IMG/VR virus record: IMGVR_UViG_3300017716_002607
Span: 1-58,227 of that record
DNA: 58,227 bases
Origin: a virus
Taxonomy: Duplodnaviria > Caudoviricetes
Reading direction: 5' to 3' (one strand)
Below the pieces are notes generated by a model. That model did not search any database. It saw nothing but the letters and a program-made list of their open reading frames with translations, and had not been told where the DNA came from. This document shows positions 34,124 to 58,009 of this stretch, piece by piece. The position numbers were made by a program, and so were the translations under genes. Numbering within the stretch: the stretch's first letter is position 1; every line of letters starts with the position of its first letter.

Positions 34124-34879
34124 TTACATATTAATGTAACTATCTTCATAATATTTATTATATAAATCAATATATATAACCTTTAATTTTTTAATTATTT
34201 TAGTAATTTGAGGAGTATCTACATCTATCATTTCACGAATATAAATGTATAGCGCCTTTTTATTAAATATATCCAATGATTCACATTTACGGAATAATTC
34301 AACGACAGCATCTGCTGTTTTAGCATCTATTTCTTTAGGAAACAATTTATGAAGATTTTTATCAACATATTTAGTGTATAACGACATAAATTCACTTACA
34401 CTATAGTCTTGTCCATAGTGGTCGTTTATTATTTCTTCTCGTATAGTTTTATCCTCTTCAATCTCTAATATGTCACCTTTATTTTGAAGTTTTTGGTAAT
34501 TTTTCTTATTTTTTAAAATTAAATAACGTTTAGCTATAGTTCCAAAATAGGAATAAGCCTTACCTTTAGCAGGCTTATATAATTTAAGTTTTTCAAGTAA
34601 AAAAGCAATTACTTCTTGTTGTACATCTTCAACAGACTCACCGTCAGTATAATAAAATTTAAAAGTGTGAATAATGTTTTGAGTTAATTTAAAAAATCCA
34701 TACTCAATACGCTCACGATAAACTCTATCTCTGAATTTCTGGTCTTGTGATCTAACGTACTCTACAATAGCATTTTGGGTGTCTTCTGTAAAATATGTAT
34801 GTGACGTTTTAGGTTTACGTTTACGAGGTTTGCCTGATTTGGTTAACTCAACTACTACTGGGCTATCTTCTAACTCCAT
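34124..34879 (-). CDS. RNA polymerase sigma-like factor (T4 gp55-like late sigma)
   Basis: YFTE...AIVEY and KAYSYFGTIAKRYLI region-2-like motif. Confidence 0.65.
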   Translation of the reverse strand: MELEDSPVVVELTKSGKPRKRKPKTSHTYFTEDTQNAIVEYVRSQDQKFRDRVYRERIEYGFFKLTQNIIHTFKFYYTDGESVEDVQQEVIAFLLEKLKLYKPAKGKAYSYFGTIAKRYLILKNKKNYQKLQNKGDILEIEEDKTIREEIINDHYGQDYSVSEFMSLYTKYVDKNLHKLFPKEIDAKTADAVVELFRKCESLDIFNKKALYIYIREMIDVDTPQITKIIKKLKVIYIDLYNKYYEDSYINM

Positions 34880-39712: not shown

Positions 39713-39877
39713 AACTTTTTAATTTAAGTCTAAATATACGAATGTTTTTTCTTGTTTCCAAATTCTTGTATATACGTTTTGAAAGGGATAAAAGATCGTT
39801 AAAGGAAGAGATTTCGGGGTCTTGGATTTTGTATCGAATGGGATATAATGGATTTTATGGTATATTTGTATATACAT

Positions 39878-40135
39878 GGGGCGCGGGGCGAATTTTGTTG
39901 TCTTGTTGTGTAGCCGGGGCCTTCTATCGTTTTGTTAGCGCAGCGTCGATGGACCGCAATTACCGTGGGCCCACTTCGCCGTCGCAGCGCGCGCGCAGCG
40001 CTAGCGTATCGATAGTTTGAAAGAGGATGTTCTTTTTTTGTCACACGCCAGTCCAGACGTGGATCCAGACATTTGGATGTTCTTTTTGTCACACGCGCGC
40101 TAAGGATAACGAAGGCGACCTTTTGGCCGCCTTAT
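39878..40135. other. GC-rich noncoding island with palindromes and direct repeats
   Basis: GGGG runs, CGCGCGCG, GGATGTTC-Tn-GTCACACGC twice. Confidence 0.7.
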
Positions 40136-40164: not shown

Positions 40165-40302
40165 TTAATTTAACGTTGGATCAATTGATATTATACGTTT
40201 TACTAAGTTACTCAATGAGAATTCAATTAATGTAATAGGTCCTACTGTATATTCAAACCAACTGAATCCATCTTGCTCTATATGTTGTGTTATTGTACTC
40301 AT
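40165..40302 (-). CDS. small hypothetical protein (45 aa)
   Basis: Manually translated MSTITQHIEQDGFSWFEY... Confidence 0.5.
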   Translation of the reverse strand: MSTITQHIEQDGFSWFEYTVGPITLIEFSLSNLVKRIISIDPTLN

Positions 40303-40473
40303 TTATTTGGTAGTTATTTTATAATAATAAAGTGAACTTACCCCACATACCATCATTAAAACCCAATACATAGCAAATTGTTCTAATGTTTCAGAATAAT
40401 AAAACATACCTATTACACTTAATAACATTAAGGTAACTAATAGTATTTTAATTAAAATTTCTAATGTTTTCAT
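40303..40473 (-). CDS. small two-helix membrane protein (56 aa)
   Basis: Manually translated MKTLEILIKILLVTLMLLSVIGMF...; promoter at 40505. Confidence 0.6.
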   Translation of the reverse strand: MKTLEILIKILLVTLMLLSVIGMFYYSETLEQFAMYWVLMMVCGVSSLYYYKITTK

Positions 40474-40504
40474 TTTTAATTGTTTTTAATTGTTAAACTA
40501 TGCT

Positions 40505-40537
40505 ATAAAATTACAAACTTAACTTAACATAACCAAA
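40505..40537 (-). promoter_or_regulatory. early Bacteroidota-type promoter; copies near 39730, 41039, 41573, 41898, 42596, 43042, 43445, 44068, 44334, 44949, 45384, 45942, 46027, 46531, 48377, 49800, 50595, 51735, 54187, 56833
   Basis: Fixed-length ~33 nt TT(T/G)G...TAnnTTTA element upstream of ATGs; resembles the Bacteroidota -33/-7 consensus (TTTG/TAnnTTTG). Confidence 0.8.
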
Positions 40538-40591
40538 CTAAATATAAATTATTTTCAAACTATTTCATTATTTATATTATTTCTAAATTAT

Positions 40592-40996
40592 TTAATCTTC
40601 ATAATCCCAATCATCATCATTATAATCTTCTCCATACATCATTTTATTAATATCTCTTAATTCAAACATACTAAACTCATCTTTTTCAAACCCATCTTTA
40701 TCAAACATATCTCTAAAATAATCTTCAATACTATATTCCCAACAAATCATATTCAATTCTAATTCTATAACTACTTCACTTTCATTCCAATCACACATCT
40801 TTTTATATAAAATACCACTACTACAATTTAAATCTTCTAATACAATTTCTCTATCTTCACCTTTAAATTCCCAAAATTCATTACTAAACTCTACAAATCT
40901 AATTCTTTTATCTTCATTTAATTCATTTATATCATAATCTTCTAAATCTACTTTTAACATTACTTTAAACCAATCACTTAATAATACTTTTTTCAT
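40592..40996 (-). CDS. highly acidic protein encoded by a C-free coding strand (candidate DNA mimic)
   Basis: 134 aa, about 40 D/E versus 16 K/R; no A, P, T, H or Q; own promoter. Confidence 0.8.
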   Translation of the reverse strand: MKKVLLSDWFKVMLKVDLEDYDINELNEDKRIRFVEFSNEFWEFKGEDREIVLEDLNCSSGILYKKMCDWNESEVVIELELNMICWEYSIEDYFRDMFDKDGFEKDEFSMFELRDINKMMYGEDYNDDDWDYED

Positions 40997-41196
40997 AACA
41001 TTTAATTTTTTAATTAATAATTTATTTATTTTAACACTATAAAATTACAAAATATAAACAACATATCATAACATATTTACAATTATTTTATATAATATAT
41101 TAATTTATAATCATTCTAAATAACAATAAAGCCCCATATTAATTAAAATATGAGGCCTTAAAGCGTTAAAATAAAAGTGTTAATTAAAATATGTAA

Positions 41197-41379
41197 TTAT
41201 GAATTTGCTAGCTTAGTTATTCTGTCTAGCTCAGAATTAAATTCATCTTCAGCATCATATACCTTATATAATGTTCTGTTCCCTCTAATAAACTCCATAT
41301 GTGACCTTTCCCGGGGATCCATCACTACATCTACTGGTTTATTGTTTTCGTTTTTGTATCTGAATAGTAACTTATTCAT
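41197..41379 (-). CDS. hypothetical protein
   Basis: 60 aa ORF. Confidence 0.6.
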   Translation of the reverse strand: MNKLLFRYKNENNKPVDVVMDPRERSHMEFIRGNRTLYKVYDAEDEFNSELDRITKLANS

Positions 41380-41380
41380 T

Positions 41381-41548
41381 TTATTTAAGGGCGTTTAATT
41401 TGTCTATTGTATGTAAGGCATCTTCTTGATCGTTAACAGGTATCATTCGGTTTTCCCCTAACACGTACCATCCATCATAACGCTCTTCTGCTCTTAATTC
41501 GCCTGATAAATCAAATGTTTCTCCGTCTGTAAATTTTAATATACTCAT
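41381..41548 (-). CDS. small hypothetical protein (55 aa)
   Basis: Manually translated MSILKFTDGETFDLSGELR...; promoter at 41573. Confidence 0.65.
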   Translation of the reverse strand: MSILKFTDGETFDLSGELRAEERYDGWYVLGENRMIPVNDQEDALHTIDKLNALK

Positions 41549-41613
41549 TGTTTTGTGTTTTTAAATTATACTATAAAATTACGACCTATATTTCCAGTAA
41601 CCACATATAATGT

Positions 41614-41640
41614 AAAAAAAGACTCAATTAAGAGTCTTTT
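41614..41640 (-). terminator. repeated terminator AAAGACTC-AATTAA-GAGTCTTT (also 42637-42663, 43147-43171)
   Basis: Three identical hairpins with A-run on + strand between cassettes. Confidence 0.8.
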
Positions 41641-41643
41641 AAT

Positions 41644-41856
41644 TTATGAAGCCATATTCTCGACCCACACTTGATTATAATCTTCTACGTAATAAACACA
41701 AATATCTTTATAATCGTATCTTTGTCTAAAACTATCTTTTAAATAGTCGACAATATCGTTATCGATTTCGTTTGTGTTGTACTCTTTAACTTCACTGTTT
41801 TCTAATAAATTAAACTCGTTTAAGTTTTCGTTGATAAAATTTTCGATTTTTAACAT
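41644..41856 (-). CDS. small acidic protein
   Basis: 70 aa; own promoter and terminator. Confidence 0.7.
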   Translation of the reverse strand: MLKIENFINENLNEFNLLENSEVKEYNTNEIDNDIVDYLKDSFRQRYDYKDICVYYVEDYNQVWVENMAS

Positions 41857-41946
41857 AATGTTTTTGTTTTAATTGTTTTTATTATTTTAACTCTTGTATA
41901 AAGATACAAATAAAAGATAACGTAACAAAATAAAAACGTAATTACT

Positions 41947-42186
41947 TTAAATAAAATTAAATACTTCATTTAAACCTTCTTTATCATTTAATAAACCTTC
42001 TTTAGATGTTATTTCAAATAAACAATTACATTCTTCAATATCAACTAAAATACAATCATCTTCACTTAATATCTCATTTATCAATTCTACTTCATTTTCA
42101 GTTAATTGTTTATTGTAAATTTTCTTTACATTACCAATACTTGAATCATAAACAAAACCATAAACATTTTCTTTAAATACTAACAT
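41947..42186 (-). CDS. small acidic protein (no Ala/Pro)
   Basis: 79 aa ORF with A-rich leader. Confidence 0.7.
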   Translation of the reverse strand: MLVFKENVYGFVYDSSIGNVKKIYNKQLTENEVELINEILSEDDCILVDIEECNCLFEITSKEGLLNDKEGLNEVFNFI

Positions 42187-42227
42187 AACTTTTATTTTTA
42201 ATTATACTTAAATATACAAACTTTTAT

Positions 42228-42554
42228 TTAAAAAACAAATTCATTCTCTTTCTCAATTATTTCTAATTTAACTATTCTATAATTAATATGTTTTAATTGA
42301 ATTGAAAAATAACCACCACCATATTCTGAACCTTTAATATATTGTGTACAATTATAATTTCCAATATAGTTATTTTCTTTCAATTTTAGAAATGATTTCT
42401 CTTGTTTAAATATTTTTGTTTTACCACCTACAATTTCTCCTAACTTAAATTCAAAATCCCATAACTCACTAATATTATCTTTATAATAATTGTTTAATTC
42501 CTGAACACCAAATTCATTTAAACCTAAATTAATAACCTTAAATTGTACTTTCAT
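42228..42554 (-). CDS. hypothetical protein (no Ala/Pro)
   Basis: 108 aa; promoter at 42596. Confidence 0.7.
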   Translation of the reverse strand: MKVQFKVINLGLNEFGVQELNNYYKDNISELWDFEFKLGEIVGGKTKIFKQEKSFLKLKENNYIGNYNCTQYIKGSEYGGGYFSIQLKHINYRIVKLEIIEKENEFVF

Positions 42555-42690
42555 AACTTTTATCTTTTTAATTATTTATTTATTTTAACTCTTGTATAAA
42601 GATATAAACAAAATATAACATAACCAAATATAATATAAAAAAAGACTCAATTAAGAGTCTTTTAATTATTAATGTAATTGTTTTTAAATA

Positions 42691-42999
42691 TTAATTAACA
42701 AATAAATCAGTATCAGTTAAATTATACTTTAATTTAATTTCGTTATAAACATTATCACAATCGTTATTATTATTTACAGTATAATAATCGTTATTATTTA
42801 TAATAACCATACAGCTTAAATTGTTATAAACTATATTACTTAATATACTTAATAAACAACTACCATCACAATCGTTTAACTGTTGTTCACAACAATAAAC
42901 ATTATTAACTACATCGTCTATTTCACAATTAAATCCGTTAATGTTAAATTTATTAACTTCTGTTAAATTGTCTGTAAAACTCATTAATTTAATTACCAT
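42691..42999 (-). CDS. Asn/Cys-rich acidic protein (no Ala/Pro/Arg)
   Basis: 102 aa; own promoter and terminator. Confidence 0.65.
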   Translation of the reverse strand: MVIKLMSFTDNLTEVNKFNINGFNCEIDDVVNNVYCCEQQLNDCDGSCLLSILSNIVYNNLSCMVIINNNDYYTVNNNNDCDNVYNEIKLKYNLTDTDLFVN

Positions 43000-43175
43000 A
43001 ATTTTTTGTTTTTAATTATTAATATTTTTATTTTTAACGATATAAAGATATAAACATTATATAACGTAACAAAACATAATTATAATTATTTTATATAGTT
43101 TTATCATTTATAATTAATCCAAATAAACTTAGTCTTGGGTTAGAATAAAAAAGACTCAATTAAGAGTCTTTAAAT

Positions 43176-43406
43176 TTAATCAATATCTTGAATATTATTT
43201 TCTTCTTTACATTCAATCAAAACAACTTTTTCAAATATTTCTTCATCATTATCATCAAAACCAATAAACATTTCATGATCATCAGTTATCTCATCTTCAC
43301 CAAATTCCATTTTATACACCCAATCTGTGTGATCAACATACTCTAAAACTACAATCTGATCAGGATTACACTTACTTAACCTGTCAATTAATTCTTTTAC
43401 TGTCAT
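43176..43406 (-). CDS. small acidic protein (MTVKELI..L N-terminus; no Ala)
   Basis: 76 aa; own promoter and terminator. Confidence 0.75.
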   Translation of the reverse strand: MTVKELIDRLSKCNPDQIVVLEYVDHTDWVYKMEFGEDEITDDHEMFIGFDDNDEEIFEKVVLIECKEENNIQDID

Positions 43407-43483
43407 AACTTTTGTTTTTAATTATTAATTATTTTAACTTTGATATAAAATTACGAAACATAATTATAACAACCAAATTTATT

Positions 43484-43702
43484 TTAATCGTTTTTATCGT
43501 TATTTGGTTTAGTGGCCGCATTATAATTCCTCCATTCCAGCCAGAATCCAATAGCCACTATAATGTTCATTCCGAATGAGGCTAGTATCTCATGGATGTC
43601 CTCATACACATTAGTTGTCAAGTGGACGTGCCCCACCATCCAAAATGGAATAGACAGATTGCCTGCTACCCATGTAATCAAAAATATAATAAACTTCTTC
43701 AT
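43484..43702 (-). CDS. small membrane protein
   Basis: Two hydrophobic segments. Confidence 0.65.
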   Translation of the reverse strand: MKKFIIFLITWVAGNLSIPFWMVGHVHLTTNVYEDIHEILASFGMNIIVAIGFWLEWRNYNAATKPNNDKND

Positions 43703-43713
43703 GATGATAAATA

Positions 43714-43740
43714 GAAAAAACCCATCATTTCTGATGGGTT
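43714..43740 (-). terminator. intrinsic terminator
   Basis: aacccatca-tttc-tgatgggtt with A-run on + strand. Confidence 0.8.
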
Positions 43741-43777
43741 AATTCACTAATTAAAAACAATAAATAATGAGAAATCT

Positions 43778-44038
43778 TTATGCTTGACCTACTACACCAC
43801 CAAATGCTGGTGTTTGTGGTTCGTCTTGAGGTTCTTCTTCTTGGTTTTGACTCATTTCATATTCAATTAGCATCATCATAGCCATTTTTAAAACCCTGTT
43901 TACTTCTTCTGAATGTGTAGCTGCATTAGCTATTGTTTCTGCTAAATTTATAGCACCACCTTCAATTTTGATACTTACTTCTTCACCTAGTACTTCAATA
44001 CTAAAAAGACAATTGTTGTTTTTTGTTTCTTCTGACAT
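43778..44038 (-). CDS. small acidic protein
   Basis: 86 aa; own promoter. Confidence 0.7.
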   Translation of the reverse strand: MSEETKNNNCLFSIEVLGEEVSIKIEGGAINLAETIANAATHSEEVNRVLKMAMMMLIEYEMSQNQEEEPQDEPQTPAFGGVVGQA

Positions 44039-44108
44039 AATAAAAATATTTAATTGTTAAACTTTGATATAAAAGTATGAATAATATTTTAGGTAACCAA
44101 ATAAAGAT

Positions 44109-44130
44109 AAAAAAAGCGCCGAAACGCTTT
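44109..44130 (-). terminator. terminator AAAGCG-CCGAA(A/G)-CGCTTT (second copy about 44989-45011)
   Basis: Near-identical hairpins with A-runs. Confidence 0.7.
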
Positions 44131-44132
44131 AA

Positions 44133-44303
44133 TTAACTTAAACAACCATCTACGTAGGCGTAAAATTCATCGTATGATTTAAAACCTTCAATATTAAATC
44201 TCTCAGTAACATTATTTATTACTTTTTGTCTTACATTTTGTTTACAACTATTGTCGTCTAAAATGTTTTTTAATTCTTCTAATAATACATCTAATTCTAA
44301 CAT
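44133..44303 (-). CDS. small hypothetical protein (56 aa)
   Basis: Manually translated MLELDVLLEELKNILDD...; promoter at 44334 and terminator. Confidence 0.65.
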   Translation of the reverse strand: MLELDVLLEELKNILDDNSCKQNVRQKVINNVTERFNIEGFKSYDEFYAYVDGCLS

Positions 44304-44367
44304 AACTTTTATTTTTAATTGTTAAACTTTGATATAAAATTATGAAACATAACTATAACAACCAAAT

Positions 44368-44928
44368 CTATCTACAAAAAAGACGATTGTAGTTGTACTT
44401 AGCTACTGGATTAATGTCTGCTATTATGCTGTATGTGCCACTAGTCTGTTCAAACAAAAGACTGGTGTCTCTGGTGTCCTGAAGCTTTTCCCTAAGTATG
44501 TTAACAAAACCGTGGTTCGATTCGTCCACTATATATTGGGGTGTACCAGGCAATCCACAATAAGCAGCCTCACCCGTCTCAGAGATAAACATGCCGGTAT
44601 AAAAACCCTTCAGCATGTGTCTATTAACAAACTGATCTGCGTTGCACCAAATAAAAATACTATTGTCTTTCTGGCTTAGTGCCTCCACCATACCAGTTCC
44701 AATCACATAACTAGCAAAAGGGCTATTAGTAGGGAACTGACCTACGGCAAATAATCCACTTGGGCTCCCATGCCCCATCATCATCACTTGATCGTGTGTC
44801 TGGATTGCCTCCTGGATCTGGTTCTGGGGCCAGCTGTCAGTTACTAGAGTGACATTATCTAGGCCGGCATAAATTGGACTCAAAAAATTAGTTGAGGCAT
44901 CATGGGGGTGTATTACTAGTGTTTTCAT
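44368..44928 (-). CDS. putative caspase/CHAT-fold cysteine peptidase
   Basis: Hydrophobic-MGHGS and FIWCNA motifs matching a His-Gly/Cys dyad. Confidence 0.55.
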   Translation of the reverse strand: MKTLVIHPHDASTNFLSPIYAGLDNVTLVTDSWPQNQIQEAIQTHDQVMMMGHGSPSGLFAVGQFPTNSPFASYVIGTGMVEALSQKDNSIFIWCNADQFVNRHMLKGFYTGMFISETGEAAYCGLPGTPQYIVDESNHGFVNILREKLQDTRDTSLLFEQTSGTYSIIADINPVAKYNYNRLFCR

Positions 44929-45015
44929 TTTTTTAATTTAAATTTGGTATAAAGGTATGAAAAATTTCTTGGGTATCCTAGTAAAGACAAAAAAAAGCGC
45001 CGAAGCGCTTTAATT

Positions 45016-45342
45016 TTATTCTTCTGGGTCTGGTTCTCCTAAAGGCATCAAATATTCTTCTAGTGTGTCACGAATAAAATCTATATCAAAATCTATACTT
45101 TCTATATAAATCTCATTACCACTTAACTCAAATTCAACTGATCTTCTATCTATAGCATCATCACTTTTATGACTAATCTCACTTAATGCTTTGTCTAATG
45201 CATCACTAATGTCTGACACTGTAATGGATTTACCTGTTAAATCATACATTTCAACCATTTCAATTAAACGAACAACGTCGTCTTTGCTAAAAATAGAACT
45301 CTCAGAATTCAATACACGGTCTAATACTTCTTGTTTTTTCAT
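45016..45342 (-). CDS. acidic hypothetical protein
   Basis: 108 aa; own promoter and terminator. Confidence 0.75.
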   Translation of the reverse strand: MKKQEVLDRVLNSESSIFSKDDVVRLIEMVEMYDLTGKSITVSDISDALDKALSEISHKSDDAIDRRSVEFELSGNEIYIESIDFDIDFIRDTLEEYLMPLGEPDPEE

Positions 45343-45389
45343 AACCTTAATTTTTTAATTGTTTTTATTATTTTAACTCTGCTATAAAA

Positions 45390-45545
45390 TTACGACACAA
45401 AAATCTGGTAACCAAAGATAAATGAAGAGTCTTTACGACTCTTGTTTTTATGTTTATCCTTACGGGTGTATGTCTTTTTTGTCTTGTGGATCAGGAGCCT
45501 AGATGCTGCCCAGCGCTCTTGAAGTGTGATTTGGATCGTCTTCAT
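45390..45545 (-). CDS. ArfA-like basic peptide (51 aa)
   Basis: Manually translated ...KTKKTYTRKDKHKNKSRKDSSFIFGYQIFVS*; internal hairpin. Confidence 0.5.
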   Translation of the reverse strand: MKTIQITLQERWAASRLLIHKTKKTYTRKDKHKNKSRKDSSFIFGYQIFVS

Positions 45546-45664
45546 AATCATAATGTTTAATGTCTTCCGACATACATACTAAAAAAATAGTGTTCCCTAT
45601 TTCTGGATCTATGGGGATCCCCTGAACCCAGAGGAATTGCTCCCACTGGGCCAGATGGTCCAAC

Positions 45665-45916
45665 TCATTCATTTAGATCTTTTCTAGTACCAACACCTAA
45701 ACCCTCATACTGTAAAAGTGAATTACAGATGTATCTTTGGATCTGGGCAATCGATTTAAGATTCTCTATGTTGTTTAGGATTGTTTTTTTATCATCGTCG
45801 TTAATATTCTTTTCATTAACGAATTCGGTGATAAACGTTTTAGCTTTAGTTGCATCGGTCATTTTAAATACTTGCTCTGCAATTTGCTCGAAAATGGATT
45901 TAATTTGTACTCTCAT
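45665..45916 (-). CDS. hypothetical protein
   Basis: 83 aa; promoter at 45942. Confidence 0.7.
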   Translation of the reverse strand: MRVQIKSIFEQIAEQVFKMTDATKAKTFITEFVNEKNINDDDKKTILNNIENLKSIAQIQRYICNSLLQYEGLGVGTRKDLNE

Positions 45917-46101
45917 AACTTTATTATTTTAATTTAACATCGTAAAGATACAAACAAAAAAACCAATACCCAAACAAAAAACAAAAAATGTTGTAACGTT
46001 TTGAAGAAAAAAAAAACGGACCCCCCATAAAGGTACGAACAAAAAAACTAATAACCTACTTGGATATTAGAAATAGTTATCCCTAAAACGTACGACGGAA
46101 G

Positions 46102-46133
46102 AAAAAAAAGACCCAACATTACTGTCGGGTCTC
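46102..46133 (-). terminator. probable terminator
   Basis: agaccc...gggtct stem with A-run on + strand. Confidence 0.6.
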
Positions 46134-46154
46134 TTCTCGTTTAACAATTAAAAA

Positions 46155-46487
46155 TTACGCAACGACCATCTTCGGACGGCCCCTTTGTATTGTCTCACCA
46201 GCTGTTTTTCTGGCTTCCCATGCAGCTAGTCTTTGCTGTCTAGCACTTGTTAGATTCGGTTTGCGTCCTTTTTGTATCGGACCATTCTCTAACAACATAG
46301 CTCTAGTAGCTAATCTTTGTTGTCTAGCACTTGCTGGATTGATTTTACGTCCACGAGCTTTGTGATCTTCTATCACCACTGTTTTGTGAATTAAAGCAAT
46401 TAATGCTTCTGTTTTCATCTGATGAGCTGGTCTTTCTGTTTTGATACCTAACTCTTTTACTTTTGCTAATACTTCTGTACGCGTCAT
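46155..46487 (-). CDS. basic AT-hook-like DNA-binding protein
   Basis: RGRK, KGRKP, RGRPK and duplicated SARQQRLA. Confidence 0.65.
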   Translation of the reverse strand: MTRTEVLAKVKELGIKTERPAHQMKTEALIALIHKTVVIEDHKARGRKINPASARQQRLATRAMLLENGPIQKGRKPNLTSARQQRLAAWEARKTAGETIQRGRPKMVVA

Positions 46488-46794
46488 AACCTTGATTTTT
46501 AAATTAATTATTTATGTTTTTAACTCTGGCATAAAATTAATATCTAAACCTCACGCAACCAAATCTCTCCACAAAAAAAAGAAAAAAACTTTCGTCGTCG
46601 TACGTTTTAGTTATTCCACCACATAAACGATATACCAAAAAAACCTAACGCTAATTGGATGACATGCACCTCGTTATCGTTATACGCTTCGTCGTCGTTC
46701 GGAACATAATATAAACCAAATGCCAATCCTTGAATCCAAAAAGGTACAATCATATATTTTAAATTTTTATTTATACCAATGTACAAAAAAATTC

Positions 46795-46992: not shown

Positions 46993-47029
46993 AGTAGTTA
47001 TGTTATGTTTCGTATATACGTTTTGAAGT

Positions 47030-47056
47030 GGGGAAACGGGGCGTGTCGGGGCGGGG
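47030..47056 (+). other. G-quadruplex-forming motif
   Basis: GGGG-AAAC-GGGG-CGTGTC-GGGG-C-GGGG. Confidence 0.75.
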
Positions 47057-47358
47057 ATCTTTTCCCCTGCCACAAAACACCATCACACATTGCTCCATTG
47101 TATTCCATATGTTAAGTACAAAAAAATGCAGCAACAAAAAAAAATATCGTTATGTTTTCCACCCTTAACCCTTGTTTTCCATCCTCACCTATTCCTTTAA
47201 GCAACAAAAAAATCGCGATTATTTGCGCAAAAAAACGCGTAATTTTGCATTACCTCCCCATAATCACATAATGCCGTGGTAAAAAAACAATGCGTTTAAA
47301 TGCGACATTTCATACCCGAAGCACCCAGCTCCTATTATTCAGTAATCGCCCTTTCGCC

Positions 47359-47433
47359 CGTACGTTATTATTCTATTTCGTCGTACGTTTCGTTTTTCTC
47401 GTCGTACGTTCTGCTCTTTCCGTCGTACGTTTT
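47359..47433. repeat. iteron-like CGTCGTACGTT repeats with 21-bp period
   Basis: Copies at 47379, 47400, 47421; partial copy at 47359. Confidence 0.85.
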
Positions 47434-47445
47434 ATTTTAGCTGGA

Positions 47446-47664
47446 TTATGTATTTGGTGCTTTGTTTTTAAATTGTTCAAACCATTCTTCTAATGTTACC
47501 TTCTTTCCAGCTAACAAATCTTCTGTATGTTTATAAAGAATATCTAATACTTCCTCCTCACTATAACTTATTTTTTGTTGCCATTTAGCACCTTCAATAA
47601 AAGCATCTTCATTATAAGGTTGTTTAGCCCAATAATTTTCAGCAACTTCTTCAAGTGTTTCCAT
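47446..47664 (-). CDS. hypothetical protein (AF.EGAKWQ...YSEEEV motif)
   Basis: Start placed at METLEE. Confidence 0.7.
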   Translation of the reverse strand: METLEEVAENYWAKQPYNEDAFIEGAKWQQKISYSEEEVLDILYKHTEDLLAGKKVTLEEWFEQFKNKAPNT

Positions 47665-52409: not shown

Positions 52410-52718
52410 TTATATTTTTAAATCTGTTTTTGGATAATATTTTTCGTATAATTCTGCTTCTTTTTGAGCACAATCATTACATTGAACTCCTCTACCTACA
52501 GTACTTAATAATTGATCGTATACTGTTAAACCATCTAATTCCTTAAATTCATCTTCTGTTATATCGGTTCGCTCTAAATTCTCCCACCAATTGTCTCTAC
52601 CCCACTTCTCGATTAATGCTTCGGCTTCGGGTATTGGAATTGTCATTGCTATAAACCCGTAATAACAATCCGCTTTGTCCTCACCACAATGATGACATTT
52701 TTCTAATTTACTTTCCAT
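52410..52718 (-). CDS. Zn-finger hypothetical protein
   Basis: CHHC...CNDC. Confidence 0.7.
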   Translation of the reverse strand: MESKLEKCHHCGEDKADCYYGFIAMTIPIPEAEALIEKWGRDNWWENLERTDITEDEFKELDGLTVYDQLLSTVGRGVQCNDCAQKEAELYEKYYPKTDLKI

Positions 52719-54230: not shown

Positions 54231-54956
54231 TTATTTTACAAATTCAATTGTATTTGTTTCTTTATCCCAATCAAATGTTATTGGTTTTTGAGTGTACTCG
54301 TAACTTTCATTCAATACAGCGGCATTGAAGAAATGTGTACCATCTTTAAATTCATAACCATATCCTGAATGAATATGACCACATACATGAATTTTAGGTC
54401 TTAATCTTTCAATTCTTTCTGCTAATAACTCGCATCCTAAATTATCCCAAGGTCTTCCTGTTACTGTATCCAGAGTTCCAAAAGCCGGACCATGAGTAAC
54501 TAAGATATCTGTGTTGTCAGGAATTGCTTCCCATTTACCTGATAATTCAATACTGTTTCTTTGTAAATTAAATGCCCATGAATAAAATTCAGGTTGCCAA
54601 GGTGATCCGTAAATGCGAATATTATCTTCAGGGTGTTCTCCATTTGGTCCATCAAAATATAATGTCACTTGCTCGTCTTGCAGATAGTCAATATCTAAGA
54701 ACTTATTTAACCACCCCTCTACATCCTCTGGGTGATTTTGAAACATACGATCATGATTACCTGCTATGAATATCTTGGTATCGTATCCTGGAATTGAATG
54801 GTACCAGTATAAAAAATCATGAATGTCATTTTTATTGTAACCTGAGTTCATTATATCTCCAGCATGAAGTATCAAATCACCACCTGGTAAATCTTCCATA
54901 GGAATCAATCCATGTCTTGTATGTGTATCTGAAAGGACTGTTATTCTTGTTTTCAT
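54231..54956 (-). CDS. calcineurin-like metallophosphoesterase
   Basis: SDTH, HAGD, AGNHD, THGP, CGHIH. Confidence 0.92.
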   Translation of the reverse strand: MKTRITVLSDTHTRHGLIPMEDLPGGDLILHAGDIMNSGYNKNDIHDFLYWYHSIPGYDTKIFIAGNHDRMFQNHPEDVEGWLNKFLDIDYLQDEQVTLYFDGPNGEHPEDNIRIYGSPWQPEFYSWAFNLQRNSIELSGKWEAIPDNTDILVTHGPAFGTLDTVTGRPWDNLGCELLAERIERLRPKIHVCGHIHSGYGYEFKDGTHFFNAAVLNESYEYTQKPITFDWDKETNTIEFVK

Positions 54957-55207
54957 TTTACCTTACATTTTTCACAATAAAGTTCTTCAGTTTTTGGTCC
55001 TGTTGAAATTATTGTTCTACATTTGTTACAGAGCATTGCTCCTCTACCGTTGTTGAATTTGTAGATTGGATATACCTCTTCCTCTTCTCCAAACAAATCT
55101 TCTCCTTTATAATCAGGATGATTTGTATGCATATAATCAATTCCTTCAACCCATACTGCGACTATTCCAATTAGCACAAATATTCCTATAGTAATTAATC
55201 CCACCAT
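54953..55207 (-). CDS. membrane-anchored Zn-ribbon protein
   Basis: N-terminal TM; CNKC...CEKC. Confidence 0.65.
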   Translation of the reverse strand: MVGLITIGIFVLIGIVAVWVEGIDYMHTNHPDYKGEDLFGEEEEVYPIYKFNNGRGAMLCNKCRTIISTGPKTEELYCEKCKVK

Positions 55208-55839
55208 CCTTCTATATTTTCTTCCATTATTTTAAATAACAACTTTCTTGCTCTATCTTGATTTATGTGTGCAATGTTCATTGCAATGATTCTTTTCATT
55301 TCAGATTCATCTCTACCATCTAGAGTAATTGGCCCTTCACCTTTTAAAACTCTTTTATAAATTAAAGGATATTTAGCGAAGTACTCATCATAGTTTTCCC
55401 ATACCTCTTCTGAGTTATATAAAGAATTTCCTGTACCATCATCACAAGGTGTCCACCATACTCGATCTTTATGATAGTCCATATATTCCATTTGGTAATC
55501 GTCTTCTTGTACTTTTTCAATCAACTTAACACATAGTCTCATTCTACGAGCATCTTGTTGTGCTCTTGTATGAAAATCTCTACGTCCAATGTAATCAGCT
55601 TGGGATTTTAGTTTATGTTTTAGAATGTCAAAGATGTAACCACTATCCCAATTTCTATCTTTCCATATAATTGGTAACCAATAAATAAGGTTTTGAATAC
55701 CCCATTTAATATCCTTATGATAATATCTAGCTTCATGTTCCCACCACAGCCATATTCTTCTAAAGAAATTTGGTCTTGGTCTGTTTTTTAAGTCTTCGAA
55801 AAAATCTTCCATATTATTTATTTTATACTGTATGTTCAA
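55195..55839 (-). CDS. hypothetical phage protein
   Basis: IWKDRNWD...WWD; start may be MEDFF. Confidence 0.7.
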   Translation of the reverse strand: MNIQYKINNMEDFFEDLKNRPRPNFFRRIWLWWEHEARYYHKDIKWGIQNLIYWLPIIWKDRNWDSGYIFDILKHKLKSQADYIGRRDFHTRAQQDARRMRLCVKLIEKVQEDDYQMEYMDYHKDRVWWTPCDDGTGNSLYNSEEVWENYDEYFAKYPLIYKRVLKGEGPITLDGRDESEMKRIIAMNIAHINQDRARKLLFKIMEENIEGWWD

Positions 55840-56230
55840 TTTGTACTCTTACACAATTCTGAGGTAATCTGTGGATGTGTCTGTAGTTGTTTATATACCC
55901 CATCATATTTGCACTACCAACTGCATTTGCAGAATGTATTATAACATCAACAACAGGAGCTCCATCAAGCCATTGCTCCACCAACCATTTAGTGCAATCC
56001 ATTCCAGTTTTCTCTTCAATATTATCATAATTCAATTCGTAATTGTGATACACGTTTGAGTGCCATTCAGCCATTGCTGAAGGTCCTAAATCATGATCTA
56101 ATGAAATTATATCAATGTTTTCTAAACCATAGTAAGTAACTTGATCTACAAATTGTTCGTAGTTTCTAACTACTTTCCAAGTTGGGTCAACTGGTGTTCT
56201 TACGTCGTCTAAATATATTTTATGTTTCAT
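55823..56230 (-). CDS. cyclic-phosphate-processing receiver-like domain protein
   Basis: YLDDVR, ISLDHDLG, TG.D..KWL, HSAN..G. Confidence 0.75.
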   Translation of the reverse strand: MKHKIYLDDVRTPVDPTWKVVRNYEQFVDQVTYYGLENIDIISLDHDLGPSAMAEWHSNVYHNYELNYDNIEEKTGMDCTKWLVEQWLDGAPVVDVIIHSANAVGSANMMGYINNYRHIHRLPQNCVRVQIEHTV

Positions 56231-56244
56231 AACTTATTTATTTT

Positions 56245-56808
56245 TTAATTAAACTTACTTTTTAAGTCTTGTTTACTAATAATTTGTTTTAATCTCTGAA
56301 CATATGTTGGATCCTCAGCATAGTTCTGTCTTAAGTATTCAAAATACTCTCCTTCAGTTTTAATACTTCTTAAGTAAGATGAATAGTACAAAGCATAATC
56401 AATAACTGATTCTTGCCATGTATCATAATAGGCATGACCTCTATTTGTTCCTTTTGCTAAATTAGCTCTTAACTTAGCTTCCTTCATACCAAACATGTTG
56501 TTGTTCTCTAGAAAGATAGTTGATTTAAAATGCCCTGATTCTAATTTAGCTTGTGCTAAAATGATGTGCGGGTATCTAAAATTTAACTCTGTAATCTTTT
56601 CAATTAACTTATTTTCTGAGAACTCATTATATTCTCTAATTACAATTAATTTATCTTCTTGAGATAAATTCTGTACTTCATTAGCTGGATTAGATGTAAA
56701 TCCAAATACTAATAGTAATCCTACTGCTGCTCCTAATCCCATTAATGTTTTATTAGTTACATTAACTTTTTCAGGTAACAATGTTTCTTCATTAAATTTG
56801 TAATACAT
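56245..56808 (-). CDS. GH73 glucosaminidase-like cell-wall hydrolase with N-terminal TM
   Basis: AQAKLESG, NNMFGMK, YAEDPTY. Confidence 0.8.
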   Translation of the reverse strand: MYYKFNEETLLPEKVNVTNKTLMGLGAAVGLLLVFGFTSNPANEVQNLSQEDKLIVIREYNEFSENKLIEKITELNFRYPHIILAQAKLESGHFKSTIFLENNNMFGMKEAKLRANLAKGTNRGHAYYDTWQESVIDYALYYSSYLRSIKTEGEYFEYLRQNYAEDPTYVQRLKQIISKQDLKSKFN

Positions 56809-56881
56809 AACCTTTGATTTTATAATTAAGGCCTAAAGATATAAAAAGAGGCTCAGAAAACCAAGCCTCTAATCAATTATT

Positions 56882-58009
56882 TTAATGAGAATCTCCTACA
56901 TCATTCTTCTCTCCGTAGATCAAATAGTCTGGATTGATTACTTTGGCTACTTTTTGACGTTCACCTGTGTAGTATTTTATTACAATCCCTTCATGTGGTA
57001 CTTTAGTTCCTTCAATGAAGTTGTTAAATGTAAATTTATCTTGGATTTCTTGTGTCCAATCTCCGTAATGTAAAATCTCTACATAAGGTAATTTTAAATG
57101 GTCTTTAACTAAATTCCAAGCATCATATGTACTTAAATATTCACCTCTAAGCTTCACATCAAATCCGGCAAACTCAATTTCAGTTAAACCATAGTCATAG
57201 TTTTTCTGAATACCTGCTCCATAAATTTCTCCATACAAAATAATACCTTCACCTACTTCAACATTTCTGTTTTTAATATAACTCCAAAGTTTTTCTTTGA
57301 TGTCATATTTTTCAGCTACTGTTCTCCAAACATCAGTTGAATAGAATCCTTGAGAGTCACTTCCTTTTTCACAGTTATGAGATCCATAAATGTATTCATA
57401 GTCAATCCACTTATCGGCTAGTCTAAAGAATTTTTTTACTTTATCCCAGAATGACAATTTAGATTTCTTTACAATACCATATCTAGCATTTGTACCATGA
57501 ACCTTTCTAGTAATTTCTACTAAATCTTCTTCAGTAAACATTCCATCAACGTTTTTAAGGTTTGGGAATTTGTAATAGATATGAAAGTTCTGATTGTCTC
57601 TCCATTTAATCTTTCTACCTGAAGCAAGTTGAATTTGTTTAACTGGTGGTTCGTATTTTACAATACCAAATTTTTCCATCATGTCATCTCCATCCTGGTA
57701 TCTGTCTCCATATCCTGGAATGTATTTAGTTGGAATGATTAAACATTCAGAATAAACTCCTCTTAATTTTACAGTTCTTACTCTGCCTCCTTTTCTTAGG
57801 TAAGAAGTAACTCCCATTTTTTCAGAGAATGCTTCTGGTATAACTGCATCAGTTGTTGCAATGACAGTTAAGTCACCTTCTTTAAATTCTCCTTTTTTAG
57901 TAATAGCATTCCATCCTCCAACAACTACTTGTTCAATGTTGTCAGCTCCTTCGATTGCTTTTACTTCTTTGATTGTTGCTATAAAGCAAACACTATTTTG
58001 ATTTTCCAT
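56882..58009 (-). CDS. RNA ligase (DRB0094/Rnl5-like, N-terminal OB domain)
   Basis: IEGADNIE, KLRGVYSE, KVHGTN, YGEIYG, FDV, EGIV, KVIN. Confidence 0.9.
   Translation of the reverse strand: MENQNSVCFIATIKEVKAIEGADNIEQVVVGGWNAITKKGEFKEGDLTVIATTDAVIPEAFSEKMGVTSYLRKGGRVRTVKLRGVYSECLIIPTKYIPGYGDRYQDGDDMMEKFGIVKYEPPVKQIQLASGRKIKWRDNQNFHIYYKFPNLKNVDGMFTEEDLVEITRKVHGTNARYGIVKKSKLSFWDKVKKFFRLADKWIDYEYIYGSHNCEKGSDSQGFYSTDVWRTVAEKYDIKEKLWSYIKNRNVEVGEGIILYGEIYGAGIQKNYDYGLTEIEFAGFDVKLRGEYLSTYDAWNLVKDHLKLPYVEILHYGDWTQEIQDKFTFNNFIEGTKVPHEGIVIKYYTGERQKVAKVINPDYLIYGEKNDVGDSH

What the first reader, a model, noticed from the sequence alone, without database searches (positions are those of the whole stretch)
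40165..46560. Candidate new system: array of early cassettes each purged of a different short sequence motif
Seen: consecutive self-contained units obey different, sharply bounded rules. No G on + strand (40503-41130); no CC/GG/GC (41667-41974); no CG/GC/GG (41939-42740); no GA/GG (42657-43038); no CG/GC (43067-43453); almost no mRNA AAA (43511-43702, 44368-44928). Amino acid usage follows the rules (loss of Ala, Pro and others), and so do non-coding parts: promoter variants swap ttacg for ttaca or taacc for taaca, and the repeated terminator stem contains no CC/GG/CG/GC. Many products are small and acidic. Known: phages deplete restriction sites, and T7 and T5 place anti-restriction or takeover genes in first-entering DNA. 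Inference: each cassette encodes a counter-defence that stays expressible under one sequence-specific attack, so the missing motif predicts the defence targeted. I know of no description of such a gene-by-gene arsenal but cannot search the literature here.
Basis: partly seen in the sequence, partly recalled or inferred. Interest (0 to 1): 0.95.

Follow-up and report, generated by a model that had tools for sequence, protein, structure and literature searches.

The report
Phage genes written without cytosine
A freshwater phage carries a small gene, together with its control region, whose coding strand contains no cytosine at all, and more than a hundred diverged relatives keep the same rule, which points to a gene built to stay expressible when a base-specific attack stops ordinary genes.

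Summary
The sequence facts are real. The + strand has no G over 40503-41130 (628 nt; next longest run 146), so the cassette on the minus strand (promoter motif, leader, 134-aa gene 40592-40996, 3' spacer) has a C-free sense strand and a protein without Ala, Pro, His, Gln or Thr. This is selected, not chance. 112 of 120 homologues (45-94% identity) lack those five residues. 12 of 19 homologous ORFs have 0 C in DNA. At least 429 substitutions in the family produced C in only 3 columns, against 47% of differences in neighbouring genes. Two unrelated neighbouring families obey the same rule (70 of 78; 8 of 9), and related phages carry C-free islands up to 1,534 nt.

The "different rule per cassette" reading is not supported. 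The dinucleotide gaps in 41644-43406 follow from C-poor, AT-rich genes whose residual C sits in a few codons. They are weak under amino-acid-preserving nulls and not conserved in a homologue.

Relatives encode DpdA3 and preQ0 synthesis; the closest cultured relative found replaces all G by a 7-deazaguanine. C-free mRNA therefore also means a template strand free of modified G. I read this as a hazard-proof expression island for accessory, probably counter-defence, proteins. The mechanism is unresolved. I found no description in print.

The parts
40503..41130 (-). C-free island: 628 nt with no C on the sense (minus) strand, that is no G on the + (template) strand. It runs from the base after the upstream terminator hairpin to the C that follows the TTTTATAG core of the next gene's promoter.
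   Evidence: 0 G in 628 nt; 7 and 15 G in the flanking 100 nt
40592..40996 (-). CDS of a 134-aa acidic protein (pI 4.1, D+E 30%) built from 15 amino acids, with no A, P, H, Q or T. It is the founding member here of a family with 120 homologues. AF2 pLDDT 90.6; no known fold or family.
40997..41060 (-). Leader and promoter module of the C-free gene. The TTTTATA core is at 41038-41044. This is the C-free variant of the ~100-nt module shared by the cassettes: sense TGTAA in place of CGTAA, and T in place of C after the core.
41130..41158 (-). Intrinsic-terminator-like hairpin of the upstream gene 41197-41379. It marks the 5' edge of the island.
40504..40510 (-). TTTTATA core of the promoter of the downstream gene 40303-40473. 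The first C of the sense strand follows it, marking the 3' edge of the island.
41947..42186 (-). Low-C cassette: 79 aa, 6 C in 240 nt, of which 3 are unavoidable.
42228..42554 (-). Low-C cassette: 108 aa, 14 C in 327 nt, 8 unavoidable. A 93%-identical homologue has 13 C.
42691..42999 (-). Low-C cassette: 102 aa, 17 C in 309 nt, mostly AAC and ACW codons. In G001 its homologue lies about 730 nt upstream of that genome's C-free island, with two low-C genes between.
43176..43406 (-). Low-C cassette: 76 aa, 11 C in 231 nt, 9 unavoidable. Distant homologues (35% identity) have ordinary C.
44133..44303 (-). Mildly low-C cassette: 56 aa, 12 C in 171 nt.
41621..41636 (-). Repeated terminator hairpin GACTC..GAGTC, copy 1. 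Copies 2 and 3 are at 42644-42659 and 43153-43168.
40165..46560 (-). Array of 18 small genes, most with their own copy of the promoter/leader module and many with a terminator. All lie on the minus strand.

Best explanation
The real feature is a cytosine-free expression island. It is an autonomous cassette (promoter module, leader, small ORF, 3' spacer) in which selection removes every C from the sense strand, and therefore every G from the strand that RNA polymerase reads.

Shown:
- The rule is kept by selection on the nucleic acid, not on the protein.
- It covers leader plus CDS and relaxes after the stop codon.
- It holds in at least three unrelated protein families, which sit together in islands of 0.4-1.5 kb in related phages.
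- The islands are accessory: present in some relatives and absent in others.

Inferred: the cassette is built so that its product can still be made while a base-specific block stops expression of ordinary genes (10-16% C in most). Each C (or template G) carries a per-site risk, so only a transcript with none is safe. The small, mostly acidic, variable products are counter-defence or takeover proteins that relieve the block.

Two versions fit the sequence equally well.
(a) Template level, about 0.3. The clade replaces G in its DNA by a 7-deazaguanine, so the island is the one stretch whose template strand carries no modified base, and the hazard acts at modified G in the template.
(b) RNA level, about 0.25. 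The hazard acts on C in RNA: chain termination by a ddhCTP-type nucleotide, a C-dependent RNase, or CTP shortage.

C is the only base a translatable ORF can lack entirely, because AUG and the stop codons need A, U and G.
For: Chance is excluded.
- The 628-nt run compares with a next longest of 146.
- Given the protein, third-position C is 0 of 90 (P=7e-5) and C-containing Leu/Arg/Ser codons 0 of 23 (P=6e-6).
- C-obligate residues are 0 of 134 against a genome median of 19.3%.

The rule is conserved.
- 112 of 120 homologues have no A/P/H/Q/T.
- Of 19 ORFs with DNA (window included), 12 have 0 C, 3 have 1, 2 have 4, and 2 have 15 and 21.
- 15 aligned ORFs show 298 variable columns and at least 429 substitutions, with C in 3 columns. 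In flanking genes 148 of 313 differences involve C.

The constraint is on the nucleic acid.
- Leaders and spacers are C-free too: the zone starts 27-157 nt before the ATG and ends 0-118 nt after the stop. Promoter-like motifs keep a C at -27 to -34 in L008, L012, L014 and L017, and terminator hairpins after the stop contain C.
- Only C is ever missing: no A-, G- or T-free run of 150 nt or more in 23 sources.

Other families follow the same rule.
- 139-aa family: 70 of 78. 83-aa family: 8 of 9.
- The 138-aa family is C-free in only 4 of 34 diverse representatives, so the fold does not require it.
- Islands: 1,534 nt in L005 (three cassettes), 1,236 nt in L003, and 986 nt in the complete genome G001, where the next longest run is 131.

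Cassettes with the same promoter module have ordinary C.

Context.
- G001 encodes QueC/D/E, FolE and a DpdA whose only phage relatives are the DpdA3 group.
- In the closest cultured relative found, immuto, dG is wholly replaced by fdPreQ1 (PMC10516641, passages read).
- The window encodes RNA ligase, a metallophosphoesterase and a cyclic-phosphate-processing domain.
Against: - No step of the mechanism is shown, and no hazard is identified.
- Transcription starts are not mapped, so 'leader' is inferred from motifs.
- In the window, L002, L005 and G001 the C-free zone also covers 57-95 nt upstream of the promoter motif. Neither version requires this.
- Against (a): only 1 of 7 DpdA3-positive genomes scanned has an island. 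That one is G001. Immuto has one near-C-free gene with 5 C in 357 nt. CP220 and G006-G009 have none, with longest runs of 70-116 nt. No effect of 7-deazaguanines on RNA polymerase and no defence aimed at them is known; Hutinet 2023 only speculates on one. The window fragment itself holds no Que/DpdA gene.
- Against (b): I found no phage RNA polymerase gene in the window or in immuto's annotation. From recall, prokaryotic viperins acted on T7 RNA polymerase rather than the host enzyme. No C-specific antiphage RNase is known to me.
- The products have no recognisable family or fold, so 'counter-defence' rests on size, charge, position and variability alone.
Confidence: 0.55

Rival explanations
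1. One reading: each cassette is purged of its own short motif and so marks a different sequence-specific defence.
For: All listed gaps exist and exceed mononucleotide shuffles. No TC/CC in 42691-42999 has P=0.0004 with the protein kept and genome codon usage.
Against: The gaps follow from few C placed in ACW, CAA, CAT and AAC codons. P is 0.01-0.07 (genome usage) and 0.03-0.14 (low-C usage) for motif sets chosen after looking. One interval is cut to leave out 4 offending dinucleotides. The TC gap is lost in a 76% homologue. Homologues of 43176-43406 at 35% identity have 11-15% C.
Confidence: 0.07
2. Mutational origin: strand-specific C-to-T pressure (deamination of the non-template strand of heavily transcribed genes, or a deaminase) has eroded C, with no function for the C-free state.
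For: The whole genome has G>C on the sense strand. The C-free proteins are rich in the residues that C-to-T changes create: F, Y, M, W, C, V, I.
Against: Cassettes with the same promoter module next door have 10-15% C. The edges coincide with terminator and promoter elements. The ORFs stay open and the proteins stay conserved and well folded. Zero C is kept through at least 429 substitutions in lineages 45-94% identical. The lost C is replaced by G as much as by T: G is 23% against 17%.
Confidence: 0.07
3. Evasion of Rho or a gain in translation: Rho loads on C-rich, G-poor RNA (established knowledge, recalled), and an RNA without C cannot form G-C pairs, so it is Rho-proof and unstructured.
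For: Sense-strand G is raised to 23% with C at 0. The cassettes are short, with AT-rich leaders.
Against: Rho needs many YC steps over tens of nucleotides, so it cannot explain purging the last one or two C from 400-1,500 nt, nor the all-or-little distribution 0/1/4/15-21. Structure near the start codon would not constrain the whole ORF.
Confidence: 0.08
4. Extreme restriction avoidance at the DNA level: a duplex with one strand free of C cannot hold any palindromic site that contains G or C.
For: This follows from the sequence.
Against: Promoters of C-free cassettes keep C at -27 to -34 in four loci, so the unit as a whole is not site-free. The clade's DNA is already protected by G replacement. 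A cut elsewhere in the genome is just as lethal.
Confidence: 0.05
5. Artefact of sequencing or assembly, such as one-strand C-to-T conversion.
For: A one-strand loss of C resembles deaminated or bisulphite-like DNA.
Against: The ORFs are intact, although conversion would turn CAA, CAG and CGA into stops. The same families appear in records from four source collections (JGI, ENA, Logan, NCBI), with real divergence. The stretch or parts of it occur in runs of 15 studies. The edges fall on regulatory elements.
Confidence: 0.01

Closest known systems
Restriction-site and palindrome avoidance in phage genomes (recalled; not read here)
   Same: Selection removes sequences that a host nuclease would recognise.
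   Different: Here a whole base is removed from one strand. The removal is limited to one transcription unit, reshapes the protein alphabet, and is tied to the transcribed part rather than to duplex sites.
Transcripts that lack a toxin's cleavage motif, and the MazF ACA-less 'single protein production' system (recalled; not read here)
   Same: An mRNA without the target sequence is the only one still translated while the nuclease is active. This is the logic proposed here.
   Different: Those cases involve a 3-7 nt motif and a known nuclease. Here the 'motif' is a single base, the state is natural and conserved, and no nuclease is known.
G-less and C-less cassettes of in vitro transcription (recalled; 'C-less' templates appear only in the listing)
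   Same: A template that lacks one base is transcribed to full length without the matching NTP and stops at the first occurrence.
   Different: Those are synthetic, non-coding tools. This is a natural coding unit.
C depletion of RNA virus genomes ascribed to CTP supply and viperin (bioRxiv 10.1101/2020.06.20.162933; abstract seen in the listing)
   Same: Cytidine is treated as the costly or vulnerable base of a virus.
   Different: That is a genome-wide drift of a few percent. Here one unit is purged to zero.
7-Deazaguanine DNA hypermodification by DpdA3 (Hutinet 2019 PMC6884629 and 2023 PMC10516641; passages read)
   Same: It concerns the same phage clade. The base replaced in the DNA is the one absent from the template strand of the island.
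   Different: The papers describe the chemistry and restriction resistance. The passages I searched say nothing of transcription or of base-free genes.
Early anti-defence proteins of modified-DNA phages, such as Ugi of PBS2 and Ocr of T7 (recalled)
   Same: Small acidic proteins made first to disarm a DNA-directed defence.
   Different: No similarity in sequence or fold was found. Those genes have ordinary base composition as far as I know.

Membership tests
   P 0.01-0.07 with genome codon usage, one gene at 0.0004; 0.03-0.14 with low-C usage; not significant with the gene's own codons shuffled
   the 76% homologue of 42691-42999 has TC 2 and GC 3. Only one homologue each was available for two of the genes.
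Cytosine-free expression island (defined here) | No C on the sense strand from leader to stop codon | tested here: met
Cytosine-free expression island (defined here) | The state is conserved in diverged homologues and in unrelated neighbouring families | tested here: met
Interferase-proof or chain-terminator-proof mRNA (MazF-type logic, viperin evasion) | The transcript lacks the attacked element while other transcripts carry it | tested here: met
   (0 C against 10-16% in most other ORFs)
Interferase-proof or chain-terminator-proof mRNA (MazF-type logic, viperin evasion) | A matching attack (ddhCTP producer, C-dependent RNase) exists in the host and the polymerase or RNA is sensitive to it | not testable with these tools
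   The host is unknown. No phage RNA polymerase was found in the window.
DpdA3-type 7-deazaguanine phages | The genome encodes DpdA3 with FolE, QueD, QueE and QueC | tested here: inconclusive
   Not in the window, which is about 36% of its genome. Present in the complete relative G001 and in immuto.
DpdA3-type 7-deazaguanine phages | G in virion DNA is replaced | not testable with these tools
   Measured only for immuto, CP220 and phiST in PMC10516641
DNA-mimic anti-restriction proteins (Ocr, ArdA, Ugi) | Small and strongly acidic | tested here: met
   pI 4.1, D+E 30%
DNA-mimic anti-restriction proteins (Ocr, ArdA, Ugi) | Fold or sequence related to a known mimic | tested here: inconclusive
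   Pfam, PHROGs, Foldseek-PDB and VIA-wide gave nothing above noise; best Z was 4.3
Classical restriction-site avoidance | Genome-wide depletion of particular palindromes | tested here: not met
   The depletion is of one base, on one strand, in one unit

The most novel reading that the evidence does not exclude
A clade of ~160-kb freshwater Flavobacterium-type phages keeps a small regulon written in a three-letter alphabet (A, G, U), encoding proteins built from 15 amino acids. These are emergency genes that can be transcribed and translated when C in RNA, or the phage's own hypermodified G in the template, is under attack. Their products would be inhibitors of a defence not yet described, for example one aimed at 7-deazaguanine DNA, or of viperin-type nucleotides. 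Base-free coding would then be a general signature for finding first-responder counter-defence genes.
Probability: 0.45. Interest if true: 0.92.

Novelty: categorically new. Interest (0 to 1): 0.86.

Why it matters
- It would be the first natural case known to me of genes that exclude a whole nucleotide and, with it, five amino acids. The rule is held by selection across several protein families.
- It gives a purely compositional search key for a class of phage genes with no annotation.
- It gives well-folded natural proteins built from a 15-letter alphabet (pLDDT 90.6).
- It makes two open questions directly testable: whether bacteria attack 7-deazaguanine DNA, and whether phages answer base-specific attacks such as ddhCTP by recoding.
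- A cultured relative exists for experiments: immuto on Flavobacterium sp. LMO8, whose gp143 has 5 C in 357 nt.

Tried and rejected
Function by homology.
- Pfam and PHROGs gave nothing above cut-off for the cassette proteins or for ten further C-free proteins.
- Foldseek-PDB on two good models found no match at E<=0.001. VIA-wide gave a best Z of 4.3.
- The ESM Atlas held the sequence letter for letter but returned no usable hit.
- tblastn of the 134-aa protein and megablast of the region against 50,697 phage records found no match.
- No tRNA. No Rfam family at gathering score. Three sub-threshold Rfam rows at E 0.09-0.19 were taken as chance.

Expression.
- One search for sequencing runs and one laying of four metatranscriptome contig sets were made.
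- The contigs covered 41205-41534 and short shared leader segments. One 211-nt contig spanned 41072-41282.
- Nothing can be said about transcription of 40592-40996, and contigs cannot show starts.

Ideas rejected.
- 'Host RNA polymerase cannot read modified G, so the island bootstraps transcription': islands are missing from CP220 and four complete DpdA3-positive relatives, no C-free family is universal, and synonymous C is not purged genome-wide.
- A queuosine/NAU-codon explanation covers neither the missing residues nor the C-free leaders.
- tRNA-cleavage avoidance fails for the same reason.
- Cas13b collateral cleavage is U-preferring by recall, so a U-rich RNA gains nothing.
- The AAA gaps: 44368-44928 is a 43% GC outlier with 5 Lys; 43484-43702 has 5 AAA against 10.5 expected (P 0.011).

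Association with QueC.
- Four g3-bearing IMG/VR fragments (7-38% complete) show no QueC, which is uninformative.
- Five handles of DpdA-positive genomes were obtained. Four were fetched and scanned; G010 was not.

Literature.
- Searches for natural C-free genes, anti-viperin factors and the like listed nothing relevant.
- This covers only the held library.

Full report
WHAT THE WINDOW IS. The window is a whole IMG/VR virus record of 58,227 bp, which CheckV rates as about 36% of its genome. All genes lie on the minus strand and GC is 30%. [quoted passage not shown] The stretch or parts of it occur in freshwater and lake metagenomes of 15 studies. The finding covers an array of 18 small genes at 40165-46487. 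Most have their own copy of a ~100-nt promoter/leader module with the core TTTTATA, and many have a terminator hairpin. The same promoter core precedes the DNA ligase gene and other genes up to about 51.7 kb.

CHECK OF THE OBSERVATION. The outstanding one is 40503-41130: 628 nt of + strand without G, the next longest G-free run being 146 nt. No run without A, C or T exceeds 62 nt. In mRNA sense this is a C-free unit. It starts at the base after the terminator hairpin of the upstream gene (41130-41158). It contains a promoter module (core at 41038-41044), a leader, the ORF 40592-40996 and an 89-nt 3' spacer. It ends at the first C after the core of the next promoter, 40504-40510. The 134-aa product has no Ala, Pro, His, Gln or Thr, the five residues whose codons must contain C. 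Given the protein, the lack of third-position C (0 of 90 eligible codons, genome rate 10.1%) has P=7e-5. The lack of CTN/CGN/TCN among 23 Leu/Arg/Ser has P=6e-6. Zero of 134 C-obligate residues stands against a genome median of 19.3%.

THE OTHER 'RULES'. Sense-strand C is 10-16% in most of the 92 ORFs of the window. It is 2.5, 4.3, 5.5, 4.8 and 7.0% in 41947-42186, 42228-42554, 42691-42999, 43176-43406 and 44133-44303. In these genes most remaining C is unavoidable (Thr ACW, Gln CAA/CAG, His CAT) or sits in AAC. That by itself leaves no CC, CG or GC.
- With the protein kept and codons drawn from genome usage, the claimed gaps have P 0.07, 0.010, 0.017, 0.0004 and 0.017.
- With the codon usage of the low-C genes P is 0.03-0.14.
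- With each gene's own codons shuffled nothing is significant.
- The motif sets and borders were chosen after looking. The interval 41667-41974 omits the end of its ORF, which holds 4 of the 'forbidden' pairs.
- The strongest gap (no TC/CC in 42691-42999) is not kept in a 76%-identical homologue (TC 2, GC 3), which does keep low C at 4.6%.
- The 93% homologue of 42228-42554 is too close to be informative.
- Homologues of 43176-43406 at 35% identity have 11-15% C.
- The 'AAA-poor' gene 44368-44928 is a compositional outlier (C 20%, A 29%, 5 Lys), and its homologues share this.
I conclude that there is one rule, avoidance of C on the sense strand. It is absolute in one cassette and graded in four or five others.

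CONSERVATION. The 134-aa protein has 120 homologues at 45-94% identity in the 5.8-billion-protein collection. 112 of them have none of the five C-obligate residues. Of the eight exceptions, two have one such residue, five have 1-8, and one is a chimeric match. The family is well conserved, with 21 invariant columns, and folds with pLDDT 90.6.

DNA was obtained for homologous loci from metagenomes and IMG/VR. Of 19 ORFs examined, window included:
- 12 have 0 C;
- 3 have 1 C, each in the last third of the gene;
- 2 have 4 C;
- 2 have 15 and 21 C.
A further partial match (L006) has 0 C. In a codon alignment of 15 ORFs, 298 of 438 columns vary and at least 429 substitutions are needed, yet only 3 columns hold a C. 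Between the window and the same relatives, 148 of 313 differences in the flanking ordinary genes involve C. The exclusion is therefore continuously enforced.

WHERE THE CONSTRAINT LIES. The C-free zone begins 27-157 nt before the ATG and ends 0-118 nt after the stop. In a second group of loci (L012, L014, L017, and L008) the promoter-like motif keeps a C at -27 to -34 while everything downstream to the stop is C-free. Terminator hairpins behind the ORFs contain C (L010, L011, L022), and in L012 a C follows the stop codon directly. So the rule follows leader plus CDS, not the protein alone and not the duplex as a whole. In the window, L002, L005 and G001 the zone also covers 57-95 nt upstream of the promoter motif. 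This may be inherited from spacers of tandem arrays, which are read through, or may mean the starts lie further upstream. Starts are not mapped. Among 23 sources, runs of 150 nt or more lacking one base were only ever C-free and only on the sense strand.

A REGULON, NOT ONE GENE. Next to the homologues lie other C-free ORFs with the same promoter module.
- L005 has three cassettes in a 1,534-nt C-free run.
- L003 has a 1,236-nt run.
- L007, L020 and L022 have two to four such genes.
- A 139-aa family has 70 of 78 members without C-obligate residues, down to 38% identity. An 83-aa family has 8 of 9.
- A 138-aa family, searched against 50%-identity representatives, is C-free in only 4 of 34. The rest carry up to 16-21% of such residues. 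For that fold the C-free state is a derived condition of some lineages, not a need of the protein.
- The complete 165,861-bp relative G001 shares cassettes, promoter and terminator motifs with the window and lacks the 134-aa family. It has exactly one island: 986 nt at 136424-137409 with two cassettes. The next longest C-free run is 131 nt, and no run lacking another base exceeds 62 nt.
- Repertoires differ between phages, and no family is present in all.

The cultured relative immuto encodes FolE, QueD, QueE, QueC, QueF and DpdA. By LC-MS its dG peak is gone, replaced by 7-(formylamino)methyl-7-deazaguanine, and DpdA3 enzymes are described as modifying genomes completely (Hutinet 2023, PMC10516641, passages read). 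G001 encodes QueC, QueD, QueE and FolE at 62-95% identity to immuto's. It also encodes a DpdA whose only relatives among 50,697 phage records are immuto and the CP220-like Campylobacter phages, that is the DpdA3 group. A C-free sense strand is therefore also a template strand without the hypermodified base. The window fragment itself holds none of these genes. All fragments carrying the 134-aa family are rated as 7-38% of genomes of about 160 kb.

To test the link I scanned seven DpdA3-positive genomes.
- G001 has the island.
- Immuto (150 of 160 kb scanned) has none, but one near-C-free gene: gp143, with 5 C in 357 nt against 8-15% in most neighbours.
- CP220 and four complete IMG/VR relatives (G006-G009) have none, with longest runs of 70-116 nt.
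The island is thus accessory within the clade, not a general requirement of G-replaced DNA.

HOW IT MOST LIKELY WORKS. Shown: selection at the nucleic-acid level removes C from leader and CDS of a few autonomous, variable cassettes. Inferred: each C (or template G) carries a risk that the gene product is not made, and this risk matters only for these genes. If it applied to all genes at all times, synonymous C would be purged genome-wide, and it is not (10% at third positions). A conditional, base-specific block fits: while it acts, ordinary genes (about 130 C per kb) fail and only the C-free units deliver protein. A graded risk per site also explains the near-C-free neighbours. The products are small, mostly acidic and without known relatives, as is usual for counter-defence proteins. 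C is the only base an ORF can lose entirely, because AUG and the stop codons need A, U and G.

The sequence cannot tell template G from RNA C.
- For the template version: full G replacement is rare among phages (19 of 50,697 records have a DpdA3 homologue), and the base replaced is exactly the one avoided. Hutinet 2023 speculates that bacteria have evolved systems aimed at 7-deazaguanine.
- Against the template version: 6 of 7 such genomes lack an island, and no effect on transcription is known.
- For the RNA version: C-directed antiviral chemistry exists (ddhCTP; recalled, and in the listings). Modified-DNA phages are typically fought at the RNA level (recalled, T4). This phage carries an RNA ligase, a metallophosphoesterase and a cyclic-phosphate-processing domain.
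- Against the RNA version: no phage RNA polymerase is evident, only a sigma-like protein at 34124-34879, and no C-specific antiphage RNase is known to me.
I put the general reading at 0.55, split about 0.3 template and 0.25 RNA.

RIVALS. A mutational origin is unlikely: neighbours with the same promoter module have ordinary C, the edges fall on regulatory elements, the ORFs stay open, and G rises as much as T. Rho evasion or lack of RNA structure cannot explain purging the last C. Duplex-level site avoidance is at odds with C kept in promoters. An artefact is excluded by intact ORFs, real divergence and occurrence in records of four source collections.

NOVELTY. Searches of the held literature for cytosine-free or C-less natural genes, and for phage answers to viperin, listed nothing relevant. 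One paper's abstract notes that natural nucleic acids rarely have long stretches lacking one nucleotide (PMC6526412, listing). The nearest concepts are restriction-site avoidance, toxin-motif-free mRNAs and synthetic G-less cassettes. None of these is a natural, conserved, protein-coding exclusion of a whole base. I rate it categorically new as a phenomenon, with the mechanism open.

VERDICT. Interest 0.86.

Noticed in passing
window 54231-58009: A likely RNA-repair set lies here: RNA ligase with an OB domain (56882-58009), a calcineurin-like metallophosphoesterase (54231-54956) and a cyclic-phosphate-processing receiver domain (55823-56230). A glucosaminidase-domain protein (56245-56808) sits among them. 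The set suggests that RNA-cleaving host defences matter to this phage.
   Followed up: partly
window 44368-44928: This 186-aa gene has a foreign composition (GC 43%, sense C 20%, A 29%; AAA 5 against 18 expected). Homologues at 65% and 89% identity in L002 and L005 share the composition. It has no Pfam or PHROG family.
   Followed up: partly
window 39768-39792 and 47012-47036: A 25-nt direct repeat (84% identical) brackets the whole cassette array. GC-rich, seemingly non-coding segments lie at both ends (about 39800-40130 and 47000-47450). These may be borders of a variable region or structured RNAs. No Rfam family matches.
   Followed up: no
window 45390-45551; NC_055915.1 67229-67378: A small basic ORF in a C-rich segment between cassettes is conserved in immuto; both begin M(IM)KTIQ(I/V)TLQERWAAS. 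It could be a real peptide or a conserved RNA element.
   Followed up: no
window 46155-46487: This very basic 110-aa protein (pI 11.5) has an internal 45-nt duplication (46224-46268 and 46308-46352, 82% identical) that repeats an ARQQRLA-type segment.
   Followed up: no
NC_055915.1 68330-68686 (L039): In the cultured phage immuto, whose G is fully replaced, gp143 (118 aa, acidic) has only 5 C in 357 nt, while most neighbours have 8-15%. It offers an experimental handle on the phenomenon.
   Followed up: partly
G001 135877-136116 (L034): A 79-aa ORF with 2 C in 240 nt lies about 300 nt upstream of the 986-nt C-free island; a 66-aa gene with 11 C and a terminator come between. Low-C and C-free cassettes cluster, as they do in the window.
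   Followed up: partly
window 34124-34879 and 52425-52712: The window encodes a sigma-70 region 2-like protein and a small Zn-ribbon protein that immuto's record annotates as RNA polymerase subunit N-like. The phage probably redirects the host polymerase rather than bringing its own.
   Followed up: no
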